From the IMG/VR virus record IMGVR_UViG_3300033489_000001, positions 126,023 to 190,022 of that record: a DNA stretch of 64,000 bases. One strand, given 5' to 3'. The DNA comes from a virus. Lineage: Duplodnaviria; Heunggongvirae; Uroviricota; Caudoviricetes. Shown here in pieces: positions 7,367 to 64,000 of this stretch. The stretch's first letter is position 1. Each line of letters begins with the position of its first letter. The position numbers and the translations under genes were made by a program. Under the pieces are notes generated by a model. The model ran no database searches. It was not told the origin of the DNA and saw only the letters and a list, made by a program, of their open reading frames with translations.

Positions 7367-7436
7367 TTGTCTCCCTCTTCCATCCTTCGTATGTAGGCGT
7401 TATATTCACAATACTGAGCTTCGTGTGGAGGCATTT

Positions 7437-7658
7437 TTAACTCACCATTAGGCTCAAAACCACTTTCAGGAAGCGTGTCGGGTTTCTCTCATGCCACCAC
7501 TTCGTAATGTCTTCCCCACCATCATGTTTCAAAATGCGAACAGAGCTAACTTCAAAGTAGGTGGCTATAATTCGATTGACATTTGGCGGAACCGACGCGC
7601 GTCCGATGATTTGATTTGTTTCCCCTAGGCATATAAGGAATTCACGTTTTTTATTCAT
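7437..7658 (-). CDS. hypothetical protein
   Basis: 73 aa ORF. Confidence 0.4.
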   Translation of the reverse strand: MNKKREFLICLGETNQIIGRASVPPNVNRIIATYFEVSSVRILKHDGGEDITKWWHERNPTRFLKVVLSLMVS

Positions 7659-7691
7659 AAGACCCTTAGTACCTATCCCTGGGTCAGACGA

Positions 7692-8063
7692 TTAAGCTTT
7701 CCAACCCTTCGGCGGCGTCCAACCGGCCTCTAAAGCTTTCTTAGCCCATTCCGGAATCGGCTTTTTTTGCTTGATAGATTCTTTGATTGCTTTGAGCATC
7801 TTGGAAGCCGCCGTCCTGGAATCCCAATAAAATCCGAACGTGTCTATTTCAACACCCGCATCTTTGCACATCTTCTCCGCTATCCAACTCTCAAAAGTAT
7901 CTTCCGAGTCTTCCGGCGGAGTATCCGAGATGTTAGCTAACCCACTTTCACCTATGACCATCCCCAGGTCGCCCCAATCACCATCCTCTTCAGCAAGCTG
8001 CCACTGAATCCGGTATCCGTCTCCGCGTGCATTATCAACTACGATTAGTTTATCTTGTGCCAT
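7692..8063 (-). CDS. hypothetical acidic protein
   Basis: 123 aa; ATG immediately follows conserved promoter motif. Confidence 0.65.
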   Translation of the reverse strand: MAQDKLIVVDNARGDGYRIQWQLAEEDGDWGDLGMVIGESGLANISDTPPEDSEDTFESWIAEKMCKDAGVEIDTFGFYWDSRTAASKMLKAIKESIKQKKPIPEWAKKALEAGWTPPKGWKA

Positions 8064-8098
8064 ATCTATTACTACACCGGAGGGAGGAAAAATTCAAG
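8064..8098 (-). promoter_or_regulatory. M1 promoter motif
   Basis: CATATCTATTACTACACCGGAGGGAGGAAAAATTCAAG abutting ATG of 7692-8063. Confidence 0.7.
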
Positions 8099-8106
8099 TT
8101 TTTAAG

Positions 8107-8505
8107 TTAGACCCTGGAGGCATCAACCCAAATTCGGTGATCTTCATCGCCGTAAGTATAAAGCAGATCCAAGACCTCATCATACTCATCGGCGGTCGCG
8201 TCTTCCTTCTCAGCAAGGCACTTTAACTCATCAATGAGTGTGTCCAGCTCCGGGTCCGTAACGTAGGGGTTTTTAGTCAGCCGCCTGGCTACGATCTTCG
8301 CTACATCTTGGACGGTCATGGTTTTTTCCCGCAGCGCCGCGTGTAGATCTCCAACTTTTAGTACGGTTTTCCAGTTAGGCATTTGTTTTGAACTCCCTTC
8401 TTGACTTTCACTAGTGCGAGACCAGTTAGGTATTAGACACCCCTTGCTTAACGCGGGGATCCATCCCGCCAAATTCACAAGCCTCCCATGTCCGGCAAAA
8501 TCCAC
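8107..8505 (-). CDS. hypothetical protein (probable true start at internal Met near 8382)
   Basis: 132 aa ORF overlapping 8426-8614 in another frame. Confidence 0.4.
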   Translation of the reverse strand: MDFAGHGRLVNLAGWIPALSKGCLIPNWSRTSESQEGSSKQMPNWKTVLKVGDLHAALREKTMTVQDVAKIVARRLTKNPYVTDPELDTLIDELKCLAEKEDATADEYDEVLDLLYTYGDEDHRIWVDASRV

Positions 8506-8614
8506 ACAAATTCTTCTTGGCTAAACAAACACTGGGAAATTTCATCCCGATTGGAGTATCAGGCGAGTAGCAGGGATGCTTTGGTATGCGTTTTTGTTCT
8601 TTCTTGTTTCCCAT
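8426..8614 (-). CDS. hypothetical Cys-rich small protein
   Basis: 62 aa, ATG abuts promoter motif. Confidence 0.45.
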   Translation of the reverse strand: MGNKKEQKRIPKHPCYSPDTPIGMKFPSVCLAKKNLCGFCRTWEACEFGGMDPRVKQGVSNT

Positions 8615-8648
8615 ATCTATTACTACACCGGAGCGAGGAATAATTCAA
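8615..8648 (-). promoter_or_regulatory. M1 promoter motif
   Basis: Same consensus abutting ATG 8614. Confidence 0.65.
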
Positions 8649-8655
8649 GTTTTTA

Positions 8656-8874
8656 TTATGGGTCGGCGGCGGCCGGGGCGTAGTTATCGAAAGTCAGGAA
8701 GTTGTACGTCACAATTCCCAGTAAGGTTGCGTTTGGGTTTTGCTCTTTGAAGAGCTGGAGCACCCCGTCCTTTTGCGTGCCATGGGTATAAGCGTAATCG
8801 CCGTTCGGGTATGTACCGTAAGCAAGGTACATGAACCTTGGAATCTTCTTGAGATTGTCAATGAAATCGGTCAT
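8656..8874 (-). CDS. hypothetical protein
   Basis: 72 aa. Confidence 0.5.
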   Translation of the reverse strand: MTDFIDNLKKIPRFMYLAYGTYPNGDYAYTHGTQKDGVLQLFKEQNPNATLLGIVTYNFLTFDNYAPAAADP

Positions 8875-9081
8875 TTAGCACGCAACCATTAAGGCGAGTT
8901 GTTCCTCTTCTACTTGAGCTTGCGCCCGGCCTAAGTGAGCAACGATACGATTCCGATCTCTTTCCTCCATCACTGCAAGCTCATCGGGGCTTACATAGTC
9001 CGTCCGATGAATTACGGCTTGGCAATAATGCGAACGGTAACTAACTGTTCCGTCACTGTGTAGTATTGGTAAGTTCCTCAT
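8875..9081 (-). CDS. hypothetical protein
   Basis: 68 aa; GGGGAGG Shine-Dalgarno-like leader downstream of promoter motif. Confidence 0.55.
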   Translation of the reverse strand: MRNLPILHSDGTVSYRSHYCQAVIHRTDYVSPDELAVMEERDRNRIVAHLGRAQAQVEEEQLALMVAC

Positions 9082-9110
9082 ATTGACCTCCCCTTTGTTT
9101 TTCCTTCTAA

Positions 9111-9143
9111 CTATTACTACACCGGAGGAAGGATTAATTCAAG
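9111..9143 (-). promoter_or_regulatory. M1 promoter motif
   Basis: Consensus ~28 nt upstream of ATG 9081 with Shine-Dalgarno leader. Confidence 0.6.
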
Positions 9144-9162
9144 AATTTTCTACAACAAAATG

Positions 9163-9765
9163 TTACTGTGGCTTGTGGGACGTTAAAAACTCCTCTTTAT
9201 ATGATCTTAACTGCCCCGAGGATAGTCTTCCACTTTCGTAGTAAAAGTCCTTCAAGAAACGCTTCACTAGAGTAATGTAAGTTGGTTTACTTCGATGTAA
9301 GCCGAACATGCCGCATTCGGTTCTTGAAGCTTCCCGAGTGTGTTTCCCCCACACTTTATTAGAAGTGAGAAATAAAGCGTGGACCCAATCATCTTGTATC
9401 TCTAAAATAACCGCAAAATGCGTTTTTCCCCCATCATTGTGGACCGCGAAAGAACCCGCACCTATTTTTTGTAAGGGTAGCGGTTTAGAGTCTTCTACCG
9501 ATAACTCTTCAAGTTTTTTCGGTAATTGCTCAACAAATTCTTTCGATAGTTGCTCATTGGGTTTTACCAGTTTTCTAAACTTCTTTCGCAACTCTTGAGC
9601 CAAAGATAAGGCTTCTTCGCGGGTGGCTGCCCCCTCTTGTAAAATCACTACATCAGAAGGTATATTTAAGTCACCCTTTACAGTGACAAAAAGCCTTAAA
9701 TCCGAGCCTTTTCTCTGTACCCCACAAACGTAACTTACCGGCCACTCTTCTTTCCAACTCTGCAT
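9163..9765 (-). CDS. hypothetical protein
   Basis: 200 aa; ATG abuts promoter motif. Confidence 0.65.
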   Translation of the reverse strand: MQSWKEEWPVSYVCGVQRKGSDLRLFVTVKGDLNIPSDVVILQEGAATREEALSLAQELRKKFRKLVKPNEQLSKEFVEQLPKKLEELSVEDSKPLPLQKIGAGSFAVHNDGGKTHFAVILEIQDDWVHALFLTSNKVWGKHTREASRTECGMFGLHRSKPTYITLVKRFLKDFYYESGRLSSGQLRSYKEEFLTSHKPQ

Positions 9766-9800
9766 AATTACTACTACACCGGAGAACGGAGTAGTTCAAG
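9766..9800 (-). promoter_or_regulatory. M1 promoter motif
   Basis: Abuts ATG 9765. Confidence 0.65.
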
Positions 9801-9845
9801 AATTTTTAAGCCCCCTTCATTAACCTTGACGTGGGGCTCCGCCCT

Positions 9846-10127
9846 TCACGCTTGATGCCCGCACCTTCGGGCCATGTGAATTACTACCACCGGGCTACCA
9901 GATAGTGTCTCCGGGCTCCGTTTCACAAGGTCATCAAACTCGGCATTGTCCCACTCCCTCCACCTCTTGCCCGTTCGAATCTCATGGGCCTCTAGCGGAT
10001 CAAACTTCTGGTGCAGATCAGCAATGGCCGCCCGGTACTCGGTTGGGCTTTCATTTTCGCCAATGGACCGGTACTTCATCACCTCGGCTAGTTGGCGGAT
10101 TGTCTCGTCTTTGAAAGCGTCAGGCAT
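9846..10127 (-). CDS. hypothetical protein
   Basis: 93 aa. Confidence 0.45.
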   Translation of the reverse strand: MPDAFKDETIRQLAEVMKYRSIGENESPTEYRAAIADLHQKFDPLEAHEIRTGKRWREWDNAEFDDLVKRSPETLSGSPVVVIHMARRCGHQA

Positions 10128-10422
10128 TTGATTGCTCTCCTCTGTATTCCGGGGGCCACGGACGCTTACGGAACTCCATAGAATCTGAACCTGAATTGTA
10201 GGCTAAGTGACTCTCGATGGCTTTCCCATCCTCAATTACGATGATTGAATCGAGGTAGGAGAAGAAGAACACCCCTTCTTTTTCTGTGTGGCCGACCGGA
10301 CCACTGTAGCAATCTGGAATTAAATACTTCTCTCGCGCATCTCCCATGGTTTTTTCTCCTTGCCCACCTTCTTTAATGAGTGAGCCATCCCCCGTGTTCC
10401 CAACGCCCTTCCCCTTCGTCAA
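10120..10422 (-). CDS. hypothetical protein
   Basis: 100 aa. Confidence 0.45.
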   Translation of the reverse strand: MTKGKGVGNTGDGSLIKEGGQGEKTMGDAREKYLIPDCYSGPVGHTEKEGVFFFSYLDSIIVIEDGKAIESHLAYNSGSDSMEFRKRPWPPEYRGEQSNA

Positions 10423-10654
10423 TCAAGGCGGCCGTATGTTCGTCTTCTTCAAGCTCTCGGTTGATATGCCGAGCACTTACATCCATACGCTGACCAGCGG
10501 CGTCCAGGGCCTCTTGAGCCTTTCTGGTAGAATCCGCCAATCGGTCCAAGTCCGCTATCGCCTTTTTCATCGTGCGGATGACCGGCAAGGCTACCCCAAC
10601 CAGTATAAAAAGGCACAAGGCGAAAATAGCGAGTAGTGTTCCGTATGGTTGCAT
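10373..10654 (-). CDS. single-pass membrane protein
   Basis: 93 aa, N-terminal hydrophobic helix. Confidence 0.45.
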   Translation of the reverse strand: MQPYGTLLAIFALCLFILVGVALPVIRTMKKAIADLDRLADSTRKAQEALDAAGQRMDVSARHINRELEEDEHTAALIDEGEGRWEHGGWLTH

Positions 10655-10665
10655 TTGATCCCCTT

Positions 10666-10890
10666 TTAGTCGGATAATATGAAACCCTCAACTGCTAAAT
10701 GTTTGAGCTGCTTACGCACTTCGGCGGCTTCCGAGACCACAATCTCGTGAACCCACCAATATTGAGCAATGACGCCTAAAGCACAAGGTGCTCCGGCGGA
10801 TTTGAACCACATCTCCGCCACCTCTGGAGTCATTTTCATATCCCGGACAGCAATAGCTTTTAGCATTTCATTTAATTGAGTTCGGGTCAT
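10666..10890 (-). CDS. hypothetical protein
   Basis: 74 aa; ATG abuts promoter motif. Confidence 0.6.
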   Translation of the reverse strand: MTRTQLNEMLKAIAVRDMKMTPEVAEMWFKSAGAPCALGVIAQYWWVHEIVVSEAAEVRKQLKHLAVEGFILSD

Positions 10891-10925
10891 ATCTATTACT
10901 ACACCGGAGAGAGATTTAATTCAAG
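10891..10925 (-). promoter_or_regulatory. M1 promoter motif
   Basis: Abuts ATG 10890. Confidence 0.7.
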
Positions 10926-10991
10926 TTTATTTTTAGCTCGGAAATTCGAGGAGGTCATCAAATTAAAGTAAGCACACCTTAATGAGTGGGA

Positions 10992-11477
10992 CTATCGCCC
11001 ACACCCGTACTTGCACCCGGCCTGACAAGGAAGGCCCTGCATCATACGTTCTGTGGCTTCATCATCGGGAATTGGCCAACCATAGTGCTCACAAATGAAC
11101 TTGAGAACTGGGGCACCATATTGAGCATAGTTGTTTTCTCCTAAGAAGATAATTTGTGCTTCAACCTCGTCATCCCCGAGCAACCATGCCCATGCTTGCA
11201 TTTTATCCAGAGTTCGGCCAGCGCTTATGCCACGATGATCCTGACACTTCGGCCAGCCATATTGAGCCATGTAAATTCTAGCCTCCTCAAGAATATTTTC
11301 TCGCGTACACCCCAGGTGTCCGTCTTTGTCCCATTTTGTTTTTGTCACCGCTTGATCGGTCAGAAATTCTTTTGCAGCCTCAAACTCCAAGTAGCTGACT
11401 AAGACTTCCGGTTGAAAGCTTATCGTTTCTTTCATTTTTTCTCGAATTCGGAGCACGATCTCTTTTTGCGTTCTCAT
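10992..11477 (-). CDS. hypothetical protein
   Basis: 161 aa; partial promoter motif upstream. Confidence 0.55.
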   Translation of the reverse strand: MRTQKEIVLRIREKMKETISFQPEVLVSYLEFEAAKEFLTDQAVTKTKWDKDGHLGCTRENILEEARIYMAQYGWPKCQDHRGISAGRTLDKMQAWAWLLGDDEVEAQIIFLGENNYAQYGAPVLKFICEHYGWPIPDDEATERMMQGLPCQAGCKYGCGR

Positions 11478-14500: not shown

Positions 14501-14819
14501 ACTCTAGTTTGTTACTGATGGCTGCCACCTTCCGCCCCCGGTCATTGGAGACAGGTCCTTCCATGATTTGGTCTAGAGCAGTTACCGCTTGCTGGATGAA
14601 GTCCGTAAACTCCTCCAAGGTCCTTCTCTGCTTTAGGGCTTCACACCGCCACGCCTTAGCATCATCTAGGGGAATGTTTGGGTTTTTTCCTTTTAGTTTT
14701 TTTACGCATAGTTCTTTCGGTAGTATACTGACCTTTAGAGGAAGCTGTAAAGGCTGCCTCTGTAATTGAAACATGCGGACGCCCTGACCTGGAAGCCGCC
14801 CAAGAGCGATTGCCTTCAA
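14400..14819 (-). CDS. hypothetical protein
   Basis: 139 aa; 3' end runs into the repeat-rich region. Confidence 0.35.
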   Translation of the reverse strand: MKAIALGRLPGQGVRMFQLQRQPLQLPLKVSILPKELCVKKLKGKNPNIPLDDAKAWRCEALKQRRTLEEFTDFIQQAVTALDQIMEGPVSNDRGRKVAAISNKLELQKDIVRLEALNIVPPKPLAYRPDGRGKKPVAL

Positions 14820-17270: not shown

Positions 17271-17348
17271 TTTTTTAAGAATTTGCTTTGTACCCAGCTA
17301 ATGTTTAATGTAACTTAGCGGAGAGGGAATCTAAAAATTCCTCGATAA

Positions 17349-17459
17349 TTGAAATTGCCTAAGGTTTCTTTTATTATAAGCTGCTCATTAGGGGAGCCCC
17401 TGTCGCGTCTCATGGACCTCCCCCGATCCCGGACGCTCTGACGGGGCTCCCCTTTTTAT
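17349..17459 (+). ncRNA. candidate small structured RNA: promoter TTGAAA-N17-TATTAT, then long GC-rich hairpin with T5 tail
   Basis: -35 at 17349-17354, -10 at 17372-17377; imperfect stem GGGGAGCCCCTGTCGCGTC/GACGCTCTGACGGGGCTCCCC (17391-17452) then TTTTTAT. Confidence 0.4.
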
Positions 17460-27694: not shown

Positions 27695-28081
27695 ATGATT
27701 AATCTCTTTAGGAAGGTTTTGTCTCTTTTCAAGCTTCGCCGGGTTACGATTGAAGAGTCTTTGAGCAATCCGGTTAGGAAGCCTCTTGAGGAAGGCTTCA
27801 CTGATAAAGCTCCTAACTGGCTCATAGCCCTAGAAGCCCATAACTTCCTAGTCCGGCAAGGTTGGATAAAGGACCAAGACTACTATCTTCCGCATAAAGA
27901 CGCCAAAATCCGATACCCTTTAATCAAGGCTCTGGAAACCGAAAGCGAACGCCTAACCGACTTAATCACCACGCTCAAAGAAGCCCCTGCATCCTTCGAT
28001 CCTAAGGACCCTCTTTCTTTAGAAGGGATTTTGGATCAAATAAACAAGTCGGTTGCGTTTCAATTACGGAAGAGATCTTAG
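27695..28081 (+). CDS. KLGW-family protein (divergent)
   Basis: 128 aa; YPLIKALETESERL resembles YPLTLALEAESKLL of 23708. Confidence 0.5.
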   Translation: MINLFRKVLSLFKLRRVTIEESLSNPVRKPLEEGFTDKAPNWLIALEAHNFLVRQGWIKDQDYYLPHKDAKIRYPLIKALETESERLTDLITTLKEAPASFDPKDPLSLEGILDQINKSVAFQLRKRS

Positions 28082-28113
28082 GATCACTCCCTAGTCTTCT
28101 CTAAGGCAATTAC

Positions 28114-38083: not shown

Positions 38084-38404
38084 AAGGAGTCTAGTTTTTC
38101 TTTGGCTAATACGTGAGCCCGTTGAGTGATGGGAGCATCTTCAGGACTTGGATAGAACCATTTTGGAAAGGTCCATTTCAATTACAGGAGAGACCTAAGT
38201 CTCTCCCTGATCTTCCCTAAAGGAAGGTTCACTTGATTCCTTAAGTTTTTTACTACAACAAGGATTAATGCTGTAAACCCAATAAACTTGCTTTTTCAAG
38301 GAGCAACTAAACTAGGTTTAGTCCGAGATCAATAGTTTGAATGAAGATGTATAAGAGGTCAAGAGCAACTTTTCCGGTGTATCTAAGGGGATAAGGAGCA
38401 TTCT

Positions 38405-39313
38405 ATGGCACATCTTGGGGACAAAGTTTTAGGTGATCCCATTGCACGGGCTGTTGATTCTCTGACCAAACTTGGGTGGAAGAGCGATAATAACTATCGT
38501 TATTATATGCCCTTAGCGTACGGCCAACTAACCCGAACATATACCATTAGGGACGCTTTAGAGATTGAAGCACAGTTCCTTTTAGGTTTACGAGAGCAAA
38601 TTGAGGGATTAAAGGAAAAGGATGTCCCTCCTAGTGGTTCAGCCGAAGAGTCTGCTACCAATCTAGAGAAAACGTTACCTAAAGACCTCCTAGCGGCTCT
38701 TAGAACGATTTTTAGCCGGTTGGTGGAGTTAGAGGCTTACAAGGAAACCGCCGTTGGGATTACGAATAAATTGATAGAGCGATCACAGTACTTTGAGCGT
38801 AAGCTTTCGGAATCTGAGTCAAAAGCCGAGACTCCTGAACCTTCTGGTAGTTCCAAAGAAGACCCCGCCACCAAGTTAAAGGACGAGCGATTGGAGCACC
38901 TTAAGAAAAAGGCACAAGAAACGTTAGAGAAGTTGGGGTGGAAAAGAGATGGGGATTGGTATCATATGCTCTGGCGGGAAGGTTTCCCCAGTTATCCCCC
39001 CTACTCACCTGTATCTGCTTTAATTTTTGAGAAAGATCAGATAATCAATTTATTAACGGCCTTCGAATCGCTTTCCAAGTCTCCTGAATCCTCTACTGGT
39101 TCAGAAGAATCTTCTGTCCCTCCTATTAGCCCCAAGGAAACGCTCCCTATCAATAAGCTAGAGGATATGATATCCGAAACCCTTCTACAGACTCTCAGAG
39201 GAAATAGGCCTGGTTGCACGGAGTGGGAAAAACAAGCAGCGTTAGAGGAAGTACTAGGGGAGCTTTATAGCCGAAGTTTCAATTACAGGAGAGATCCTAA
39301 GATCCCTCCCTAA
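38405..39313 (+). CDS. KLGW-family protein with two KLGW modules
   Basis: 302 aa; LTKLGWKSDNNY and LEKLGWKRDGDWY modules; S/E-rich linker. Confidence 0.6.
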   Translation: MAHLGDKVLGDPIARAVDSLTKLGWKSDNNYRYYMPLAYGQLTRTYTIRDALEIEAQFLLGLREQIEGLKEKDVPPSGSAEESATNLEKTLPKDLLAALRTIFSRLVELEAYKETAVGITNKLIERSQYFERKLSESESKAETPEPSGSSKEDPATKLKDERLEHLKKKAQETLEKLGWKRDGDWYHMLWREGFPSYPPYSPVSALIFEKDQIINLLTAFESLSKSPESSTGSEESSVPPISPKETLPINKLEDMISETLLQTLRGNRPGCTEWEKQAALEEVLGELYSRSFNYRRDPKIPP

Positions 39314-42656: not shown

Positions 42657-42884
42657 ATGTCACTAGCTGAAGAAGCAATGGAAGGGTACTGTTGTAGTCG
42701 TTGTGGGACGAAGTTTATAGCTCCGCACGGCTACCCAGTACTCTGTAAAAGCTGTTACCAGTGGGTCCCGCTCATTAAAGAAGGCGGGCTTACTTTGATT
42801 GATGAACCTTACTCTGTAAAAGAAGGTAAGGCATCAAGTAGGCAATGTCCCTCAAAAAGAATGAAAGTCAAGGTATTCTCATGA
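42657..42884 (+). CDS. Zn-ribbon small protein
   Basis: 75 aa; CCSRCG...CKSC; 3' end overlaps conserved non-coding-like block. Confidence 0.4.
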   Translation: MSLAEEAMEGYCCSRCGTKFIAPHGYPVLCKSCYQWVPLIKEGGLTLIDEPYSVKEGKASSRQCPSKRMKVKVFS

Positions 42885-43687
42885 AACCGATAGTTCTAAT
42901 GCGATCTTCTTTAGCCGAACAAGCTGAAAAAGAAGAAGCAGAGCGCCACTTTCAGGTTATAGAAAGGCGAACGCTAATCCCTTCCAACCGGTTGGTCATT
43001 TGCCGGTATTCGGCATTACCTTACTACAAAGAGTTAGAAGAGGATGTCAAAGAATTGGGTAGTCAACTGATCAACAGTTACAACCAACACTTGTTCGTAG
43101 CAGACATGAAGAACTGGTACCCTATATTGGAAGAGTATACCCCTATGACATGGTTTACTCTTGCAGAAGTTCCTTATGGAAGCGGCCCATTTGTTTTGAA
43201 AGGAGCTACTAACTCAAAAAAGAATCAATTTTTCACTCATATGTTTGCCAAAGATAAGCGGGAGGCAATCGAGGTTTTTGGCCGTTTAAGCGATGATGGT
43301 TTTGTGGGTTACCAATCTATTTATATTAGACAATACGCTCGTTTAAGGAAGTTATGTGCCCCAATCACGTCTAACTCTCCGCCGGTCAGTGAGGAGTACC
43401 GGTTCTTCGTTCTGGATGGCCGGATTCTATGCGGGGGCTTTTATTGGAGCGAGTACTTAGATGCTATCCCTGAGAAAGAACAGATAGGGATCAACCAGGT
43501 GCCACTTAACTTCTTGCAAGAAGTTGTCGATTTAGTAGCACCTCACATTCGTTTTTTTGTGCTAGACGTGGCTCGAAGGTTCGATGATCATTGGATCGTA
43601 ATTGAGTTGAATGACGGACAGCAATCTGGTTTATCTTCTATTTCGCTCGCTGAGCTTTATGCCCCCTTAGCGGCTATGCTGGCCTAA
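42845..43687 (+). CDS. ATP-grasp fold enzyme-like protein (probable start at Met 42881)
   Basis: 280 aa; PFVLKGATNS...VGYQSIYIRQY...RFFVLDGRIL...FFVLDVARRFDDHWIVIELNDGQQSG resembles ATP-grasp nucleotide-binding core. Confidence 0.5.
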   Translation: MSLKKNESQGILMKPIVLMRSSLAEQAEKEEAERHFQVIERRTLIPSNRLVICRYSALPYYKELEEDVKELGSQLINSYNQHLFVADMKNWYPILEEYTPMTWFTLAEVPYGSGPFVLKGATNSKKNQFFTHMFAKDKREAIEVFGRLSDDGFVGYQSIYIRQYARLRKLCAPITSNSPPVSEEYRFFVLDGRILCGGFYWSEYLDAIPEKEQIGINQVPLNFLQEVVDLVAPHIRFFVLDVARRFDDHWIVIELNDGQQSGLSSISLAELYAPLAAMLA

Positions 43688-44847: not shown

Positions 44848-45243
44848 ATGGTCAAGCGCGTATTAATCTGTGGATCGAGAAATTTTTCAAACAAGACAGT
44901 CATTGAAAACATTATGAAAGGCTTCCTCTCTGATACGGTCATCATTCAAGGTGGGGCTAGAGGAGCCGACGCTTTAGCTAAAGAGATAGCTAAAGCCCTT
45001 CACTTGACTTGCGTGGAGTATCCCGCTGATTGGGCTAAGCATGGCAAAGCTGCGGGGGCTATTCGTAACGCGCAAATGCTGAAGGAAGGCAAGCCTAATA
45101 TTGTCTACGCTTTTTATGAGGTTTATGGGAATAGCCCTGGCACGAGGGACATGGTAACTAAAGCTGAAAAAGCCAAGATTTGTGTCTACGAGTATTCCTC
45201 AGAGGGACCTATAAGCGTTAGCAATTCGGGGAGTGTCTTATGA
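44848..45243 (+). CDS. SLOG-superfamily (DUF2493/YpsA-like) protein
   Basis: 131 aa; ICGSRNF...VIIQGGARGADALA...HGKAAGAIRN pattern. Confidence 0.6.
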   Translation: MVKRVLICGSRNFSNKTVIENIMKGFLSDTVIIQGGARGADALAKEIAKALHLTCVEYPADWAKHGKAAGAIRNAQMLKEGKPNIVYAFYEVYGNSPGTRDMVTKAEKAKICVYEYSSEGPISVSNSGSVL

Positions 45244-47304: not shown

Positions 47305-47991
47305 TTGCCAAAAAATGATGTAGAAAATATAATTGGTGAATTGTCTTTAGCTTTTATTGATTCTTCTTTATATGTATTAGGCCTGAGAGATTCTTACACA
47401 TCTAGTCATTGTGCGAATGTAGGCATGATATCCGCGAAGATAGCCCAGAATATGGGACTTTCGGATGAGTTTTCTGAAGAGATAGCTCTAGCGGGTAGGG
47501 CTCACGATATTGGTAAGATTGTTTGGCCCGATCGTTGTTTTACGGATGCCAAATTAGAAGACCTTTGTGACTGTAAGCTTTTGATGGCAGAGCATCCAAC
47601 TTACAGCAAGGCTTATTTGTGTAAAGCTTTGGAGCCTTTGTATCGTGACAAATGCAAGCCTAGGTGGGTGCATTGGGTGTGGTTGCATCATTGGGGGTAC
47701 AGTGAAGAGTTTCATAAGAATCCAAAACCAAGCGATGTCACTTCTCAAGTACATTTGGATGAGGAGTTCGAGTTAGGTTTCTGTATACTTCATGTGGCAG
47801 ATGCTTTTCACGCGGGGACCTCTGTACGAAAGTATCGAGGTGCTGATCCAAAGGATGTTAGAGTTGTGTTAGATGAGTTGATAACCGGGAGTGGGACTAA
47901 TTACAACCCGGAAGTTGTCGCACAAATGCTAAAAATGGAGAAATGGTTAAACGGAGTATGTGATTACAACAACCGAGGTAGGGTATCATGA
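47305..47991 (+). CDS. HD-domain phosphohydrolase, HD-GYP-like with degenerate GYP motif
   Basis: 228 aa; H...GRAHDIGKI and HVADAFHAGTSVRKYRG resemble HD-GYP; WLHHWGYSE in place of HHExxDGxGYP. Confidence 0.6.
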   Translation: MPKNDVENIIGELSLAFIDSSLYVLGLRDSYTSSHCANVGMISAKIAQNMGLSDEFSEEIALAGRAHDIGKIVWPDRCFTDAKLEDLCDCKLLMAEHPTYSKAYLCKALEPLYRDKCKPRWVHWVWLHHWGYSEEFHKNPKPSDVTSQVHLDEEFELGFCILHVADAFHAGTSVRKYRGADPKDVRVVLDELITGSGTNYNPEVVAQMLKMEKWLNGVCDYNNRGRVS

Positions 47992-56864: not shown

Positions 56865-57398
56865 ATGGGAAAGTTCACTTACGAGTCTATTGATAGATTT
56901 CCACAAGCCCATTACGAAATTGATTTGGATTGGGACTACTTAGAGGAATGGTTAGAAAGCCAAAAGAATACCAGGATACCTGAAAGTGGGATTGACCTTG
57001 ACCCTGATTTTCAGCGGGCTCACGTTTGGACACCGGAGCAACAAGTAAGTTACGTGGAGTTTATCCTTCGTGGGGGAGAGTCGGGCCGGGTGCTTTATTG
57101 GAACCACCCAAACTGGCAAGGAAGCTTCAAAGGCTATCTTACCTTAGTTGACGGAAAACAGCGCCTGGAGGCTGTAAGGGCGTTTCTGCGGAACGAAATT
57201 CCTGCTTTCGGTAGTCTACTAAAAGACATGGAGTCAAGATTTTTAAGAAAAACTGGTTCTGGTTTCAAAATGCGGATCGCTAGGCTCAAAACTCGTAAGG
57301 ACGTTCTGAACTGGTACCTCATGATCAACTCCGGCGGAACGCCGCATACCTCGGAAGAGTTAGATCGCGTGCGGGAGCTACTGAAAAAAGAAGCGTAA
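56865..57398 (+). CDS. DUF262 (GmrSD N-terminal, ParB-like NTPase/nuclease superfamily) stand-alone domain protein
   Basis: 177 aa; DLDPDFQRAHVW...ILRGG...LVDGKQRLEA matches the DUF262 DxxPxYQR / (I/V)DGQQR motifs; no DUF1524/HNH partner; ATG abuts promoter motif. Confidence 0.65.
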   Translation: MGKFTYESIDRFPQAHYEIDLDWDYLEEWLESQKNTRIPESGIDLDPDFQRAHVWTPEQQVSYVEFILRGGESGRVLYWNHPNWQGSFKGYLTLVDGKQRLEAVRAFLRNEIPAFGSLLKDMESRFLRKTGSGFKMRIARLKTRKDVLNWYLMINSGGTPHTSEELDRVRELLKKEA

Positions 57399-61575: not shown

Positions 61576-62952
61576 TTACCTAAGCTCCTTCATAATCTCG
61601 GTCACTTCCGGCGGTAGAGATTCCCCTAACATGTACAAAGAAAAAGCTTCGGCGAAATTCTCTAGCCAGCCCTTTTTAGCATAAGGGGTCACGGCGATAG
61701 GCTCACGAATAATCTTGTCCGTTCGTATCGTGATGTCCGCCTCGGAAGATAAAGCCATCCCATCCCGGAGAGCTTTACGGTTTGTCTCACTAGGGTCCTT
61801 CAAGAACTCTTGGGAAAGATCCCTGAGCTTAGGTCCATTTTTGTGAATGAGGTACTTTAGATATCGGGTAAGTAGGTCTGATTGTATGACCTTTTTACCT
61901 TGTGCTTGTGCCTCAGCAATTGCTAAAAACTCATCGGCCAGCTTAGCTCTGGTGACCTTGTCAAACACGATGGTGTCATAAACCGGGTTGACTGACAGCG
62001 CCCAAAAAGCGTCCCTTTGCCCTTTATCTTTCCAAAACTTGTGTGCGTAGCGGTGTCCGAACTCATGGCACAAAGAACGAACATCTCCCACCGTCTTTGA
62101 CGCCCGCAACCCAAGTTGTATGGTGTCTTGTCCGGCCACGTAAGAAGCAACCCCGCCTGACACCGTCCGGTTGATGTAAACCTTGCCGTAAAGTAGCTGG
62201 GAGAACTTGGGACGAATCGCTTCAGCGGCTTTATCTAAAGCCTCTAGGCAGTCCTTCATTTTGGGGCCAGACACACCCGGCATGGGTATGATGGTAAAGT
62301 CACCATGGGGGAACTCAGAGCCTTCAGCATTGACTTTACCGTCTAACCAAGAGGCTTCTCGAGCGAGTGCCTCAAAACGATTGATCAAACCATGTGGGAC
62401 AGGCCCCTCTGTTAGGTACTTGGGTAAAGATCGGCGAAGATCTTTGGCCTCTCTGATGATTTTTCTAACCTTATTTTGGATTTGGGGGCCTAGAGCGTAA
62501 AACCATTCGGCTTCCAAAACGATGGCATACCCTATTTCGGCTTCTACCTCTCCCACCTCTAGAAAGGTCCAGAAATCGTCCAGAGCTTTGATGGCTGCCT
62601 CTACATTGCCTTTTCGTAGTGAGGCCGCTCCAGCGTCCATAAGGCTGCCAAGATTACGTTTGGAGGTCAGGTAACGGGAGGCAACCCGTATGGCCGCCTC
62701 TGCCCTTGCCCTTTCAGCAATAGCCTTTTCCTTTACGTCGGCTCTCCAGATACGATACAGGCCTAAGACTTTGTTTTTCTTTCTGCCTTTGGGGATTGGT
62801 TCTATCTCGATCGTGGGGTTGCCATATTGATCAGCCCCAAAACCTACTACCCGGCCCCGATGGTTCTTCCATTTTCCGTAAAGAACTTCAGTTCCTATTG
62901 AGAAATAGGATGAGGCGAACCTCTTGAGAACTCTTAGTGCGGGGGTGTCCAC
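61576..62952 (-). CDS. HExxH zinc-metallopeptidase-motif protein
   Basis: 458 aa; LCHEFGHRYAHKFW contains HExxH; divergent from the adjacent repeat array. Confidence 0.6.
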   Translation of the reverse strand: MDTPALRVLKRFASSYFSIGTEVLYGKWKNHRGRVVGFGADQYGNPTIEIEPIPKGRKKNKVLGLYRIWRADVKEKAIAERARAEAAIRVASRYLTSKRNLGSLMDAGAASLRKGNVEAAIKALDDFWTFLEVGEVEAEIGYAIVLEAEWFYALGPQIQNKVRKIIREAKDLRRSLPKYLTEGPVPHGLINRFEALAREASWLDGKVNAEGSEFPHGDFTIIPMPGVSGPKMKDCLEALDKAAEAIRPKFSQLLYGKVYINRTVSGGVASYVAGQDTIQLGLRASKTVGDVRSLCHEFGHRYAHKFWKDKGQRDAFWALSVNPVYDTIVFDKVTRAKLADEFLAIAEAQAQGKKVIQSDLLTRYLKYLIHKNGPKLRDLSQEFLKDPSETNRKALRDGMALSSEADITIRTDKIIREPIAVTPYAKKGWLENFAEAFSLYMLGESLPPEVTEIMKELR

Positions 62953-63004
62953 ACTAAGAAGGGATGCAAAAGGAGTTTCTTAATGGCTCGTTGTTTGTTT
63001 GTTT

Positions 63005-64000
63005 ATTTCAATTACAGAGGGAAGGATTACCTCCCCTCCTTATTAAGCATAATAGAATGTCGAGAGTCATTTCAATTTCAGGGGGAGAATTACTCTCCCT
63101 CCTTTTGCTCCCCTCCTTCTGAGTGCTTTGAGTAGTGATGGTTTCAATTACAGAGGAAGAATTACTCTTCCTCCTTATGTGCGTCTCTTACAACAGACAC
63201 GTATGGCGTTTCAATTACAGAGGAAGAGTAATTCTTCCTCCTCCTTCGGCTACTGAGGACAATTGTCAGTTGCCAATTAGTTTCAATTTCAGAGGGATAT
63301 TTACTATCCCTCCTTGGGTGAGCTATCCATGCCGGTGTTCAATTACGTTGCAATTACAGAGGAAGAATTACTCTTCCTCCTTACAGATAACAAGCTTCGT
63401 CCACATTGCCTTGGTTGTTTCAATTCCAGAGAGAGTAAATATCCCTCTCCTTTAAGTATATTTTAACTATCGAAGGGTCGCAAGATCTGGGATTTCAATT
63501 CCGGAGGGAGAATTACTCTCCCTCCTTGCACTCGAGCGGATGCCGTGAGGGTTCTTTTGTTTCAATTTTAGAGAGATATTTACTATCCCTTCTTCTATTG
63601 CAAACGATATTACTTGTTACGGCGATCTCCGGTTTCAATTACAGAGGAAGAGGTATCCCTTCCTCCTTTACTCTATTCTAAAAGTTGAGCCAATGCATTA
63701 TTTCAATTTCAGAAGGAGAATTACTCTCCTTCCTTGCTCGTCAAAATGGATATGCGCTCTAAATCGATACTTGTTTCAATTACAGAGGAAGAGAAACCCT
63801 CCCTCCCTCCCTCCCTCCCTCCCTCTGGTAGATAAATCCTATAGTCTTTCCGGAATATTTTCTTTTCAATTACAGAGGAAGAGGTACCTCTTCCTCTCTC
63901 TTGGGTAATGTAAGAGCGTCCTCGATTGGTGTTTCAATTCCAGAGGGAGAATTACTCTCCCTCCTTAAGTTAGGAGTTGAGCGAGCTAGGCGGGAAGGGT
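63005..64000 (+). CRISPR. CRISPR-like array: >=14 degenerate ~36 bp hairpin repeats with 29-39 bp unique spacers, truncated by window end
   Basis: Consensus (G)TTTCAATTNCAGAGGAAGAATTACTCTTCCTCCTT; period 65-75 bp; stems covary; no cas genes in window. Confidence 0.45.
63797..63821. repeat. (CCCT)6 microsatellite inside one array repeat
   Basis: ccctccctccctccctccctccctc. Confidence 0.9.

What the first reader, a model, noticed from the sequence alone, without database searches (positions are those of the whole stretch)
63005..64000. CRISPR-like array of hairpin repeats with covarying stems
At least 14 units of a ~36 bp repeat recur every 65-75 bp, separated by unique 29-39 bp spacers. The repeat is GTTTCAATT(A/T/C)CAG + 8-9 bp stem + 4-5 nt loop + CC(TT). 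These are classical CRISPR dimensions, and the array is truncated by the window end. Unlike canonical CRISPR repeats, the stems differ between units but stay paired: GAGGAAGA/TCTTCCTC, GAGGGAGA/TCTCCCTC, GAAGGAGA/TCTCCTTC, GAGGGATA/TATCCCTC. Some hairpins are exact reverse complements of neighbours: unit at 63208 versus 63141, and 63418 versus 63281. The unit at 63858 is a perfect 22 bp palindrome. One unit has a (CCCT)6 expansion and one (63336) a partial duplication. The structure, rather than the sequence, appears to be conserved. This could be a degenerate orphan CRISPR array, an array of tandem small-RNA or terminator-like hairpins, or a structure-specific recombination or packaging array. 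It sits divergently next to an HExxH metallopeptidase gene, with no cas genes in the window.
Basis: seen in the sequence. Interest (0 to 1): 0.85.

Follow-up and report, generated by a model that had tools for sequence, protein, structure and literature searches.

The report
CRISPR array with hypervariable hairpin repeats
The repeats are the old (trailer) end of a real 65-unit CRISPR array whose cas genes lie just past the window edge; it is unusual because almost every repeat has a different sequence, yet all keep the same RNA hairpin and the same 11-base tail.

Summary
Window 63005-64000 holds 14 complete hairpin repeats, all different from one another. They are the trailer end of a 65-repeat, 4.6-kb CRISPR array that runs past the window end on a 411-kb metagenomic contig.

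The array reads on the window's minus strand. Each 36-nt repeat is a 9-bp hairpin followed by CUGUAAUUGAAAC. A conserved leader and a cas5d-cas8c-cas7-SF2 helicase operon lie 3.8-10.6 kb beyond the window. No cas1, cas2, cas4 or cas3 was found in 83 kb. This matches the "type I-C variant" reported from huge phages in 2020.

The unusual part is the repeats: 56 of 65 sequences are distinct. Even so, 94% of stem positions pair, 7 of 9 stem pairs show compensatory changes, and mismatches are mostly G·U on the transcribed strand. Handle positions 28-35 are 97-100% conserved. Three or four hairpins are inverted.

Relatives range from uniform arrays to kilobase tails where only the handle survives. 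The best reading is a Cas5d-processed array constrained on structure plus handle, not a relic or a non-CRISPR element.

Side findings are four solitary repeat units in the window and array units that match the cas5d upstream region in three family members.

The parts
63005..64000 (-). Trailer-end segment of a 65-repeat CRISPR array: units r65 to r52 plus 2 nt of r51. The whole array spans window-equivalent 63005-67605 (L001 5348-9948).
   Evidence: The strand is inferred from cas gene orientation, leader position, handle orientation and G·U asymmetry.
63005..63040 (-). Repeat r65, the last unit of the array: AGGAGGGGAGGTAATCCTTCCCTCTGTAATTGAAAT.
   Evidence: hairpin dG -17.4.
63069..63104 (-). 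Repeat r64.
63141..63176 (-). Repeat r63 (type A): AAGGAGGAAGAGTAATTCTTCCTCTGTAATTGAAAC. The 11-nt handle occupies 63141-63151.
63208..63243 (-). Repeat r62, a type A hairpin inverted relative to r63 (loop ATTAC instead of GTAAT).
   Evidence: (I2).
63280..63315 (-). Repeat r61 (type C): GAGGGATAGTAAATATCCCTC hairpin.
63336..63382 (-). Repeat r60, with a tandem duplication of the 11-nt handle.
63417..63452 (-). Repeat r59, partly inverted relative to type C.
   Evidence: (I6).
63492..63527 (-). Repeat r58, identical to r35 outside the window.
63559..63594 (-). Repeat r57, a weakened type C hairpin.
   Evidence: dG -7.2.
63632..63667 (-). Repeat r56 (type E).
63700..63735 (-). Repeat r55, with GAAGGAGA/TCTCCTTC stem.
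63773..63808 (-). Repeat r54. Its 5' hairpin arm has expanded into an (AGGG)n microsatellite, read as (CCCT)7.2 at 63797-63825 on the + strand.
63863..63898 (-). Repeat r53 (type E), a perfect 24-nt palindromic hairpin.
63931..63966 (-). Repeat r52.
39276..39312 (-). Solitary repeat unit (hairpin + CUGUAAUUGAAAC) outside the array, preceded by a ~170-nt module shared with the 38175 unit.
   Evidence: Covariance model R1: 26.1 bits, E 7e-4.
38175..38209 (-). Solitary repeat unit, paralogue of the 39276 unit. Similarity between the two ends exactly at the handle.
   Evidence: 25.3 bits, E 1e-3.
28057..28093 (-). Solitary repeat unit.
   Evidence: 18.9 bits, E 0.04.
14738..14772 (+). Solitary repeat unit on the opposite strand.
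   Evidence: 22.8 bits, E 4.5e-3.
61576..62952 (-). 458-aa ORF starting 52 nt after the last repeat, co-directional with the array. It contains HEFGH, is not conserved next to the arrays of relatives, and is probably not part of the system.
   Evidence: No family hits.

Best explanation
The window holds the oldest 14 units of a genuine 65-unit CRISPR array. The array belongs to a type I-C-variant CRISPR-Cas locus (cas5d-cas8c-cas7-SF2 helicase-256 aa-66 aa wHTH-like-leader-array) on a 411-kb element that looks like a huge phage.

The array is transcribed from the leader on the window's minus strand. This is inferred.

Each 36-nt repeat folds into a 9-bp hairpin. By analogy with type I-C, Cas5d would cut at the 3' base of that hairpin. 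The following guide would then carry the 11-nt handle GUAAUUGAAAC, and the preceding guide would keep the hairpin at its 3' end. The resulting crRNAs would load a Cas5-Cas8c-Cas7 Cascade. With a non-Cas3 helicase and no nuclease detected, that complex may interfere without cutting, as type IV-A systems do (inferred).

The repeats have diverged because the locus has no adaptation module of its own, so units persist for a long time instead of being renewed.

Selection keeps only what the proteins read, namely hairpin geometry and handle sequence. Stem sequences therefore drift through G·U intermediates and compensatory changes.

Hairpin-templated mutation also contributes. Three or four whole-hairpin inversions show this, and the process can fix both arms of a stem in one step.

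Repeat classes recur in blocks that have unrelated spacers. That points additionally to recombination between arrays or to spacer insertion at internal repeats.
For: Shown by tool results:
- The array continues to 65 repeats next to cas genes.
- Cas7c scores 1.6e-41 to 3.6e-47, Cas8c 1e-31 and Cas5d 9e-10. The helicase matches ResIII/DEAD only. There is no cas1, cas2, cas4 or Cas3 HD domain in 83 kb.
- The gene order matches the huge-phage 'type I-C variant' lacking Cas1 and Cas2, with a helicase instead of Cas3 (PMC7162821). The same operon occurs in seven other loci.
- 56 of 65 repeats are distinct. 94.2% of stem cells pair, and 7 of 9 pairs change on both sides. There are 58 compensatory cells, against 19.6±3.3 in shuffles (0 of 500 reach it) and at most 29 in the slid controls.
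- Handle columns 28-35 are 97-100% conserved. The conserved block begins at the hairpin's 3' base, which is where I-C Cas5c cleaves to leave an 11-nt handle (bioRxiv 10.1101/2024.12.27.630466).
- Stem mismatches are G·U 47 versus A·C 21.
- The sense-strand hairpin is the more stable one in 43 versus 8 distinct units here, 24 versus 1 in L003 and 29 versus 9 in L009.
- The trailer third still has 21 of 22 hairpins and 21 of 22 exact handles.
- The five leader-proximal repeats are identical. Leader motifs are conserved in three relatives.
- Hairpins r20, r30 and r62 are inverted, and r59 partly so.
- All spacers are unique apart from one diverged pair.
- Canonical arrays with the same handle are uniform; one Spirulina array has 51 of 51 identical repeats.
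Against: - There is no expression or processing data.
- No spacer matches any phage, plasmid or IMG/VR sequence, so no target or PAM is known.
- Without cas1 and cas2 nearby, the way spacers are added is unknown.
- Stems are purine-rich on one arm and pyrimidine-rich on the other, so 85% pairing arises in shuffles. Repeats are also related by descent, so the counts are not independent events.
- Hairpin-templated mutation can produce 'compensatory' changes without selection.
- Spacer length variance rises towards the trailer, SD 2.5 to 6.2, and relatives have clearly decayed tails. Some of the old units may therefore be non-functional.
- Phage identity is not demonstrated. No capsid, terminase or tRNA genes appear in the 83 kb examined.
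Confidence: 0.85

Rival explanations
1. Decaying relic. With no adaptation genes the array is no longer used. The units drift neutrally, and hairpins persist only because palindromes self-correct through template switching.
For: - No cas1 or cas2 was found.
- No spacer has a target.
- Spacer lengths become erratic towards the trailer.
- Hairpin inversions show that templated mutation operates.
- Relatives L009 and L053/L054 have kilobase tails that are clearly degenerate.
Against: - Handle positions 28-35 are 97-100% identical in all 65 units, while adjacent stem and loop positions vary by 15-45%. Templated mutation cannot maintain the unpaired handle.
- The G·U over A·C bias and the sense-strand stability bias occur in three arrays, which indicates selection on the RNA.
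- The trailer third is as intact as the leader third.
- The cas genes are intact ORFs conserved across relatives.
Confidence: 0.12
2. Mosaic origin. The diversity mostly reflects recombination among several arrays, each with its own repeat class (A, B, C, D, E), or spacer insertion next to internal repeats. In-place point mutation would then be a minor contributor.
For: - The class map AAAAAAAABBBBFAAAACCGCBBBBACDAHAAAIAAAAADAJAABBKCCALAEAAECAMACAAAN shows class B at three separate places and class C at four or more. The spacers in those blocks are unrelated, so this is not segmental duplication.
- The five leader repeats are identical, as expected if each insertion copies the neighbouring repeat.
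- L055 carries two arrays with different repeat classes around one operon.
- L003 and L009 each switch repeat class partway along the array.
Against: - Within each class the repeats still differ from one another, so 56 of 65 distinct sequences requires much point change as well.
- No second array or donor with these repeat classes was found in 83 kb or in the GTDB representative genomes.
- This complements the best explanation rather than excluding it.
Confidence: 0.4
3. Adaptive diversification. Non-identical repeats are favoured because they suppress repeat-repeat recombination and so spacer loss in a highly recombinogenic large phage genome, or because they help escape repeat-mimicking RNA anti-CRISPRs.
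For: - The array is long (65 units), whereas phage arrays have a median of 6 repeats (PMC7162821).
- Diversity extends to within 6 units of the leader.
- RNA anti-CRISPRs that mimic repeats exist (PMC10651486).
- Heterogeneous arrays recur in the family.
Against: - Family member L055 keeps a uniform 15-repeat array, and L009 a near-uniform 30-repeat block. Diversification is therefore not required.
- There is no direct test, and the pattern is equally well explained by age plus relaxed sequence constraint.
Confidence: 0.1
4. Not CRISPR. The region is a tandem array of small-RNA or terminator hairpins, a TIGR-type guide array, or a recombination or packaging signal array.
For: - Repeat identity is far below what CRISPR finders expect.
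- TIGR arrays are likewise described as lacking sequence conservation (bioRxiv 10.64898/2026.09.09.750476, abstract).
- No Rfam CRISPR-DR family matches.
Against: - The array adjoins a cas5d-cas8c-cas7 operon and shares its direction, and this arrangement recurs in relatives.
- The repeats end in the class 1 ATTGAAAC handle.
- Repeats are 36 nt and unique spacers about 36 nt.
- No T-tract follows the hairpins.
Confidence: 0.02

Closest known systems
Huge-phage 'type I-C variant' CRISPR-Cas (Al-Shayeb et al. 2020, PMC7162821)
   Same: - Cas5d-like, Cas8c and Cas7, with an unidentified SF2 helicase in place of Cas3.
- No Cas1, Cas2 or Cas6.
- Located on contigs of more than 300 kb.
- Relative L055 is an NCBI-deposited 349-kb contig with the same operon.
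   Different: That paper does not describe array-wide repeat heterogeneity and reports phage arrays as compact, with a median of 6 repeats. This array has 65 units, 56 of them distinct. The co-occurring Cas-phi system of the published phages was not looked for, because only 83 kb of the contig was readable. Phage identity of this contig is not shown.
Canonical type I-C arrays and Cas5c/Cas5d processing
   Same: The repeat is a 3' hairpin followed by an 11-nt handle ending ATTGAAAC. Conservation starts exactly at the hairpin's 3' base (for the I-C cleavage site).
   Different: - Canonical arrays have near-identical repeats. Arrays found with the same handle pattern were 51 of 51 and 15 of 15 identical.
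- Canonical loci carry cas3, cas4, cas1 and cas2.
- The repeat here is 36 nt rather than about 32 nt (the canonical length is from my own knowledge).
Trailer-end repeat degeneration in ordinary CRISPR arrays (general knowledge)
   Same: The oldest units diverge from the consensus. In relatives L003, L009 and L053/L054 the divergence increases towards the trailer.
   Different: Ordinarily only the last one or a few repeats are affected and structure is lost. Here divergence begins at repeat 6 of 65, while hairpin and handle are retained throughout.
Compensatory base changes between CRISPR repeat families (Kunin et al. 2007, PMC1896005)
   Same: The repeat stem-loop is preserved through compensatory substitutions (abstract).
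   Different: Kunin et al. compared repeats from different genomes and arrays. Here the covariation is among units of a single array.
Solitary repeat units, crRNA-like regulatory RNAs and CreR (bioRxiv 10.1101/2024.12.27.630466; PMC12737573) and RNA anti-CRISPRs (PMC10651486)
   Same: - Four solitary hairpin-plus-handle units lie outside the array.
- Array units share 17-19 nt with the cas5d upstream region in three family members.
- Solitary repeat units upstream of cas5c, and guides with only partial promoter matches, are described for I-C.
   Different: - No second-site targets were found for the solitary units.
- The promoter-matching units sit inside long arrays rather than as stand-alone mini-arrays.
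- The 5' flanks are TTA or TTG rather than the canonical I-C TTC (the canonical PAM is from my own knowledge).
- The matches may be paralogous repeat remnants rather than guide-target pairs.
Type IV-A CRISPR-Cas (DinG helicase, no adaptation module)
   Same: A class 1 effector is paired with a non-Cas3 helicase, has no adaptation genes of its own, and is carried by a mobile element. Type IV-A interference is nuclease-independent, and spacers are acquired in trans (abstracts of PMC11519345 and bioRxiv 10.1101/2023.06.23.546257).
   Different: The Cas proteins differ: the Cas5d, Cas8c and Cas7c families here, versus Csf. The helicase is not DinG. The functional analogy is inference only.

Membership tests
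CRISPR array (generic) | Regularly spaced direct repeats of 23-50 nt separated by unique spacers of similar length | tested here: met
   There are 65 repeats of 36 nt. Spacers have a median of 36 nt (range 19-54). All spacers are unique except one diverged pair.
CRISPR array (generic) | Repeats (near-)identical within one array | tested here: not met
   56 distinct sequences among 65 repeats, with mean column identity 82%. Control arrays with the same handle are uniform.
CRISPR array (generic) | Adjacent cas genes and a leader upstream of the first repeat | tested here: met
   The cas5d-cas8c-cas7-helicase operon ends 200 nt before repeat 1. The roughly 200-nt leader shares a GCGCTCGCAAA-like motif (twice) and CTCTTTGACAA with relatives. 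No canonical sigma-70 promoter was flagged.
CRISPR array (generic) | Spacers derived from mobile elements (protospacer matches) | tested here: inconclusive
   There are no credible hits in the phage or plasmid collections, and none for the three newest spacers in IMG/VR. Same-sample contigs could not be searched.
CRISPR array (generic) | Transcribed and processed into crRNAs | not testable with these tools
   This needs RNA-seq or biochemistry. The only indirect evidence is the strand-specific G·U bias.
Type I-C CRISPR-Cas (canonical) | Cas5c/Cas5d, Cas8c and Cas7c effector genes, with no Cas6 | tested here: met
   PF09704 scores 8.7e-10 and PF09709 9.9e-32. TIGR02589 scores 1.6e-41, below NCBIfam's curated cut-off. 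PADLOC Cas7c/Cas7b models score 4e-45 to 4e-47. No Cas6 appears among the called genes.
Type I-C CRISPR-Cas (canonical) | Cas3 with an HD nuclease plus helicase | tested here: not met
   The 771-aa protein matches only ResIII/DEAD. It has no HD or Cas3 model hit and no PDB relative. A separate 228-aa generic HD protein lies about 21 kb from the helicase gene and is not matched to Cas3 models.
Type I-C CRISPR-Cas (canonical) | Adaptation module: cas4, cas1 and cas2 | tested here: not met
   None is present in the 83 kb read (record positions 158,449-241,413). The other 328 kb of the contig could not be read.
Type I-C CRISPR-Cas (canonical) | Repeat with a hairpin followed by an 11-nt handle ending ATTGAAAC | tested here: met
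   The consensus is AAGGAGGGAGAGTAATTCTCCCTCTGTAATTGAAAC, with the hairpin at columns 3-25 and the handle at columns 26-36.
Huge-phage type I-C variant (Al-Shayeb 2020) | Cas5d-like, Cas8c and Cas7 with a helicase instead of Cas3, lacking Cas1 and Cas2 | tested here: met
   The helicase family is tiny: 12 representatives at E<=1e-30 among 1.84 billion proteins. Seven of the eight relatives' loci fetched here show at least part of the cas operon beside the helicase gene; L052 is cut before it.
Huge-phage type I-C variant (Al-Shayeb 2020) | Carried by a phage genome of more than 200 kb | tested here: inconclusive
   The contig is 411 kb and densely packed with short ORFs of unknown function. Relatives sit on contigs of 349-453 kb. 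No capsid, terminase, portal or tRNA genes were seen in the part read.
CreR / crRNA-like regulatory RNA | A repeat-flanked guide with partial, seed-anchored complementarity to a promoter of its own cas operon | tested here: inconclusive
   Matches occur upstream of cas5d in three family members:
- This contig: 18 of 19 nt, 62-80 nt upstream.
- L009: 16 of 17 nt, 61-77 nt upstream.
- L054: 16 of 17 nt, 26-42 nt upstream.
Each starts at guide nt 1, with its single mismatch at nt 12, 6 and 12 respectively. Shuffles reach these scores in 0, 0 and 1 of 400 trials.
Against this, L003 has no such match. In L055 the match includes a handle. The units also look like collapsed repeats.
Solitary repeat units / RNA anti-CRISPR | Isolated CRISPR-repeat mimics in a viral genome that match a host CRISPR repeat | tested here: inconclusive
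   Four solitary units match the element's own repeat model. The host is unknown, and no genome among the GTDB species representatives has this hairpin.
TIGR-Tas | An array associated with a Tas (Nop-domain) effector gene | tested here: not met
   No such gene appears among the called genes. The array is flanked by cas5d, cas8c and cas7.

The most novel reading that the evidence does not exclude
In this rare family of large mobile elements, CRISPR arrays would be maintained for very long periods without an adaptation module of their own. They would serve as guide libraries in which only RNA geometry and the 11-nt handle are read. Repeats would then be free, or even favoured, to become non-identical. 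Some old units would have been co-opted as crRNA-like regulators: units matching the cas5d upstream region in three relatives, and solitary units scattered through the genome. The array would then be a natural 'non-repetitive' CRISPR array combining defence guides with built-in self-regulation.
Probability: 0.25. Interest if true: 0.8.

Novelty: new variant of a known kind. Interest (0 to 1): 0.6.

Why it matters
Four things follow if this reading holds.

1. The array is a natural mutational scan of what a Cas5d-type processing enzyme and its Cascade need. It offers 56 different repeats, including inverted hairpins and duplicated handles, all sharing one geometry and one handle.

2. Arrays like this fall below the repeat-identity thresholds of standard CRISPR finders. 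CRISPR content of large phages and plasmids may therefore be under-counted.

3. It gives a testable case of how arrays evolve when the element has no cas1 or cas2. The candidate processes are drift under structural constraint, hairpin-templated mutation and recombination. It also shows how old units might become regulators.

4. Naturally non-repetitive arrays are of practical interest, because identical repeats make synthetic multiplex arrays unstable and hard to build.

Tried and rejected
- **Rfam.** Neither the gathering nor the E-value threshold gave a CRISPR-DR family. The only hits were spurious miRNA matches caused by adjacent inverted hairpins.
- **Megablast of window 40-64 kb** against the phage and plasmid collections found nothing.
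- **Spacer targets.** I searched the whole array against phages and plasmids with blastn, and the three newest spacers against IMG/VR. There were no credible hits; the few 27-35-nt hits had E >= 0.1, and the two I mapped back overlap repeat sequence.
- **IMG/VR scan for two spaced handles.** This returned four small contigs that are coding repeats in a repetitive protein, not CRISPR.
- **GTDB genome scan for the handle pair.** This found canonical uniform arrays, mostly cyanobacterial, with a different hairpin. They serve as a baseline but give no host candidate.
- **Cas7 relatives in IMG/VR.** None were found.
- **Word-indexed homologue searches** with Cas7, helicase and Cas8c returned almost only the query itself. 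The full-library helicase search was what opened up the family.
- **Structure of the 458-aa HExxH neighbour.** The model had pLDDT 44.8 and is unusable, so no fold search was run. PDB sequence searches for it, the helicase and the 256-aa protein found nothing significant.
- **Second-site targets for the solitary-unit guides.** None were found in 82 kb.
- **A second assembly of this same array** (Logan or JGI copy) could not be fetched, because the look-up tool collapses similar places.
- **Sample accessions** were not found in the literature library.
- **TIGR-Tas, terminator-array and packaging-array readings** were rejected on the cas context.
Full report

Yes. Reading window 62000-64000 shows the units directly, and the repeat finder returns 13-copy families spaced 64-75 nt apart. 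The motif GTTTCAATTNCAGAG with up to 2 mismatches occurs 14 times in 63005-63945. The whole window would give 0.84 by chance, and 0 of 100 shuffles reached the observed count.

- The covarying stems are present.
- The hairpin of the 63208 unit is the exact 21-nt reverse complement of the 63141 unit's hairpin (I2).
- One unit is a perfect palindrome.
- The CCCT run is 7.2 copies at 63797-63825.
- The 63336 unit carries a partial duplication.

Two details need correcting. The 63418/63281 pair is 90% complementary rather than exact (I6). In-window spacers span 20-54 nt rather than 29-39.

**2. What lies beyond the window**

An exact look-up of the neighbouring 458-aa protein places the window on ENA metagenome contig ERZ27256988:k141_5351839, which is 411,476 bp (window position w = record position 159,268 + w).

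The repeats continue for another 3.6 kb. The whole array has 65 repeats (L001 5348-9948, window-equivalent 63005-67605). The window therefore holds the last 14 units plus 2 nt of a 15th.

Upstream of the first repeat lies a leader of about 200 nt. Before that come six co-directional genes: cas5d (212 aa), cas8c/csd1 (566 aa), cas7 (311 aa), a 771-aa ResIII/DEAD helicase, a 256-aa protein and a 66-aa protein with a weak wHTH-like match. The supporting scores are:
- Cas7c: 1.6e-41 in NCBIfam and up to 3.6e-47 in PADLOC.
- Cas8c: 1e-31.
- Cas5d: 9e-10.

The helicase matches no Cas3 or HD model and has no PDB relative. No cas1, cas2, cas4 or cas6 appears in the 83 kb I could read.

**3. Orientation**

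Four observations say the functional strand is the minus strand:
- The cas genes and the leader lie on that side and run in that direction.
- On that strand the repeat ends in ...CUGUAAUUGAAAC, the class 1 handle.
- Stem mismatches are G·U 47 versus A·C 21 on that strand.
- The hairpin is more stable on that strand in 43 versus 8 distinct units here, 24 versus 1 in L003 and 29 versus 9 in L009.

Leaders of three relatives share a GCGCTCGCAAA-like motif, present twice, and a CTCTTTGACAA motif. The simple sigma-70 scan flagged no promoter there.

Read this way, the 458-aa HEFGH-containing gene is co-directional with the array and starts 52 nt after it. It is not divergent from the array.

**4. 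Anatomy and conservation**

The consensus repeat is AAGGAGGGAGAGTAATTCTCCCTCTGTAATTGAAAC. Columns 3-11 pair with columns 17-25, giving a 9-bp stem and a 5-nt loop. Columns 26-36 are the tail.

Of the 65 repeats, 56 are distinct. On the 56 distinct sequences:
- 94.2% of stem cells form standard pairs.
- 7 of 9 stem pairs change on both sides.
- 58 cells carry compensatory double changes, against 19.6±3.3 in column shuffles (0 of 500 reach it) and 5-29 when the 3' partner is slid by 1-3 columns.

Two caveats apply. The stem is purine-rich on one arm and pyrimidine-rich on the other, so shuffles already pair 85% of cells. The repeats are also related by descent, so the counts are not independent events.

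Columns 28-35 (AATTGAAA) are 97-100% conserved, G26 is 95% and C24/T25 are 98%/92%. Stem and loop columns have minor-allele frequencies of 15-45%.

The conserved block thus begins exactly at the 3' base of the hairpin. That is where type I-C Cas5c cleaves to leave an 11-nt 5' handle (bioRxiv 10.1101/2024.12.27.630466).

The trailer third, which includes the window, is as intact as the leader third: 21 of 22 units keep a hairpin and 21 of 22 keep an exact ATTGAAA.

**5. How the diversity is arranged**

The five leader-proximal repeats are identical. This is expected if each insertion copies the adjacent repeat, which is established Cas1-Cas2 biology and my own knowledge rather than a result here.

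After that the repeat classes run as follows:

AAAAAAAABBBBFAAAACCGCBBBBACDAHAAAIAAAAADAJAABBKCCALAEAAECAMACAAAN

Class B appears in three separate blocks and class C at four or more places. Yet the spacers are all unrelated, apart from one diverged pair, spacers 27 and 39. The blocks are therefore not segmental duplications. This points to recombination between arrays with different repeat classes, or to insertion at internal repeats.

Three hairpins (r20, r30, r62) are whole-hairpin inversions of their class, and r59 is partly so. That is the signature of intramolecular template switching in quasi-palindromes, a mechanism I know from the literature and did not test here. The same process can copy a change from one arm to the other, so part of the "covariation" may be mutational rather than selective.

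Six repeats carry a tandem duplication of exactly the 11-nt handle. One 5' arm has expanded into (AGGG)n. Spacer length spread grows towards the trailer, from SD 2.5 to 6.2.

**6. Relatives**

The family is very rare. A full HMMER scan of 1.84 billion representative proteins finds only 12 helicase relatives at E<=1e-30. Word-indexed searches with Cas7, helicase and Cas8c found almost only the query.

| Locus | Source and contig size | Array |
|---|---|---|
| L003 | JGI, 453 kb | About 50 units, 36 distinct: 8 near-identical repeats, then a block of a second class, then an increasingly degenerate tail |
| L009 | 165 kb | 30 near-uniform repeats, then about 3.5 kb where a second class decays until only GATTGAAAC survives |
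| L053 = L054 | 94-kb contig and 420-kb scaffold from two datasets, 100% identical over 22 kb | 3 identical repeats, 2 variants, then about 4 kb with dozens of handle-only motifs |
| L055 | NCBI GCA_902730355.1, 349 kb | A uniform 15-repeat array downstream of the operon, plus a 9-repeat heterogeneous array with covarying stems and a triplicated handle upstream of cas5d |
| L051 | 43 kb | Operon present, no array within 10 kb |

Array heterogeneity is therefore a recurrent but not universal family trait, and this contig is the extreme case. The L053/L054 identity also shows that such structures are reproducible and not assembly noise.

As a baseline, canonical arrays retrieved from GTDB genomes with the same handle pattern are uniform. 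One Spirulina array has 51 of 51 identical repeats.

**7. What kind of replicon is it?**

The 83 kb read is packed with short, co-directional ORFs that have almost no Pfam hits. The few hits are radical SAM, a methyltransferase, Band_7, R2K ATP-grasp, an HD domain, GmrSD_N and a HicB-like protein. There are no tRNAs and no near matches in the phage or plasmid collections.

Relatives share R2K ATP-grasp and GmrSD_N genes. L053/L054 carry aminoacyl-tRNA-synthetase-like, Ro60/TROVE and VapE-like genes.

A huge-phage-like element is the likeliest reading. I saw no capsid, terminase or portal gene, so this remains inference.

**8. How it most likely works**

Shown:
- This is a CRISPR array next to a type I-C-variant effector operon.
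- Hairpin geometry and handle sequence are conserved while stem sequence is free.
- There is strand-specific G·U tolerance.

Inferred:
- The array is transcribed from the leader.
- Cas5d cleaves at the hairpin base, giving crRNAs with the 11-nt handle GUAAUUGAAAC.
- Those crRNAs assemble into a Cas5-Cas8c-Cas7 complex.
- With a non-Cas3 helicase and no nuclease detected, interference may be nuclease-independent, as in type IV-A (PMC11519345 abstract).
- Spacer addition, if it still happens, must use adaptation proteins supplied in trans (compare bioRxiv 10.1101/2023.06.23.546257) or recombination.

No spacer target was found, so the targets and the PAM are unknown.

**9. Rivals**

- **Pure decay.** This is contradicted by the near-invariant unpaired handle in all 65 units and by the RNA-strand bias. 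It may still apply to some old units, and it clearly applies to the tails of relatives.
- **Mosaic origin.** This is probably part of the truth and complements the best explanation rather than excluding it.
- **Adaptive diversification** against recombination or repeat-mimicking RNA anti-CRISPRs. This is possible but untested. Uniform arrays in L055 and L009 argue it is not required.
- **Non-CRISPR readings** (terminator array, packaging array, TIGR). These are excluded by the cas context.

**10. Side findings**

(a) Solitary repeat units. A covariance model of the repeat finds four solitary hairpin-plus-handle units elsewhere in the window, at 39276-39312(-), 38175-38209(-), 14738-14772(+) and 28057-28093(-), plus a weak fifth. 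The 39276 and 38175 units share a conserved upstream module of about 170 nt whose similarity stops exactly at the end of the handle. Their downstream pseudo-guides have no second match in 82 kb.

(b) Units matching the cas5d upstream region. Spacer 39 lies just outside the window (window-equivalent 64816-64841). It matches 18 of 19 nt between a -35-like and a -10-like hexamer, 62-80 nt upstream of cas5d. The match starts at guide nt 1 and its mismatch is at nt 12. It is the only extended seed-anchored self-match among the 64 spacers, and 0 of 400 shuffles reach it.
- L009 has an analogous 16-of-17 match, 61-77 nt upstream, with the mismatch at nt 6 (0 of 400 shuffles).
- L054 has one 26-42 nt upstream, with the mismatch at nt 12 (1 of 400 shuffles).
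- The 5' flanks are TTA, TTG and TTG.
- Positions 6 and 12 are flipped out of the guide-target duplex in type I Cascade. This is my own knowledge.

This resembles CreR or crRNA-like autoregulation (PMC12737573). There is a serious alternative, however:
- Spacers 39 and 27 look like hairpin-collapsed class D repeats.
- The L009 guide resembles the 5' part of its own repeats.
- In L055 the corresponding match includes a handle and adjoins an upstream array.
- L003 shows no such match.

The matches may therefore be paralogous repeat remnants rather than guide-target pairs. I cannot separate these two readings computationally.

**11. Novelty and score**

The kind of object (a CRISPR array) and the system type (huge-phage I-C variant) are both known.

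What I did not find described is an array in which nearly every repeat differs while hairpin and handle are kept. Kilobase handle-only tails in relatives also appear undescribed. Two full-text searches returned only between-genome covariation (Kunin 2007, PMC1896005) and ordinary terminal-repeat degeneration. The literature library is incomplete, so prior description cannot be excluded.

I rate this a new variant of a known kind, with interest 0.6.

Noticed in passing
window 39276-39312(-), 38175-38209(-), 28057-28093(-), 14738-14772(+); weak 17321-17355(+): Solitary repeat units (hairpin + CUGUAAUUGAAAC) lie scattered outside the array. The 39276 and 38175 units share a ~170-nt upstream module that ends exactly at the handle, and they flank the 302-aa gene 38405-39313. 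They may be crRNA-like regulators, decoys or cassette boundaries. No second-site targets were found in 82 kb.
   Followed up: partly
just outside the window: window-equivalent 64816-64841 (L001 8112-8137), matching window-equivalent 74659-74677 (L002 7469-7487): Spacer 39 matches 18 of 19 nt between -35-like and -10-like hexamers 62-80 nt upstream of cas5d. The match starts at guide nt 1 and the mismatch is at nt 12. Analogous matches occur in relatives L009 (19065-19081 vs 7551-7567) and L054 (17716-17732 vs 6330-6346), but not in L003. They are either CreR-like self-regulating guides or paralogous collapsed-repeat remnants.
   Followed up: partly
window 63336-63382, plus five units outside the window (L001 5781-5827, 6590-6636, 7345-7391, 7569-7615, 8356-8402): Six repeats carry a tandem duplication of exactly the 11-nt handle (for example ATTGAAATGTAATTGAAAC). 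L055's upstream array ends in a triple handle, and L009 has a 20-nt duplication. This looks like recurrent slippage or imprecise insertion at the handle.
   Followed up: no
L009 15700-19220; L053/L054 13600-17750: Relatives have 3.5-4 kb array tails in which hairpins are lost and spacing shrinks to 25-60 nt. The handle motif (GATTGAAAC, or GGAAATTGTAAT/GGAGATTGCAAT) still recurs dozens of times. It is unexplained why only the handle survives.
   Followed up: partly
L055 5440-6090 and 13430-14480 (NCBI GCA_902730355.1, CACVFJ010000001.1): One operon is flanked by two arrays. The upstream 9-repeat array is heterogeneous with covarying stems, and the downstream 15-repeat array is uniform with a different hairpin. 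The last two downstream spacers differ by a single base.
   Followed up: partly
window 61576-62952(-): A 458-aa ORF with an HEFGH motif starts 52 nt after the last repeat. It has no hit in Pfam, NCBIfam, PADLOC or PHROGs and nothing significant in PDB. The single-sequence AlphaFold model is unusable (pLDDT 44.8). It is not found next to the arrays of relatives.
   Followed up: yes
window 42845-43687(+), 44848-45243(+), 47305-47991(+), 56865-57398(+): The window encodes R2K-clade ATP-grasp, YspA/SLOG, stand-alone HD-domain and GmrSD_N/DUF262 proteins. R2K and GmrSD_N genes also occur near the cas operon in relatives L051, L053/L054 and L055, which suggests these elements are related beyond the CRISPR locus.
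   Followed up: no
L012 (Logan SRR10376092 contig, 18.9 kb), corresponding to window ~1-11000: A close variant of the left end of the window occurs in a second sequencing run, with some gene differences. The cluster records also list a 411,618-bp copy of the contig, 142 bp (about two array units) longer than this one. I could not fetch it to compare the arrays.
   Followed up: no
L001 6670-6759 (window-equivalent 66194-66283): There is a spurious sub-threshold Rfam mir-30 hit (37 bits). Adjacent repeats r19 and r20 carry mutually inverted hairpins, so together they can form a long inter-repeat duplex enclosing spacer 19.
   Followed up: no
L002 7405-7447 (window-equivalent 74699-74741): A perfect 18-bp hairpin followed by a T-tract, a strong terminator-like site, separates the upstream Myb-like gene from the cas5d promoter region. 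This implies the cas operon has its own promoter.
   Followed up: no
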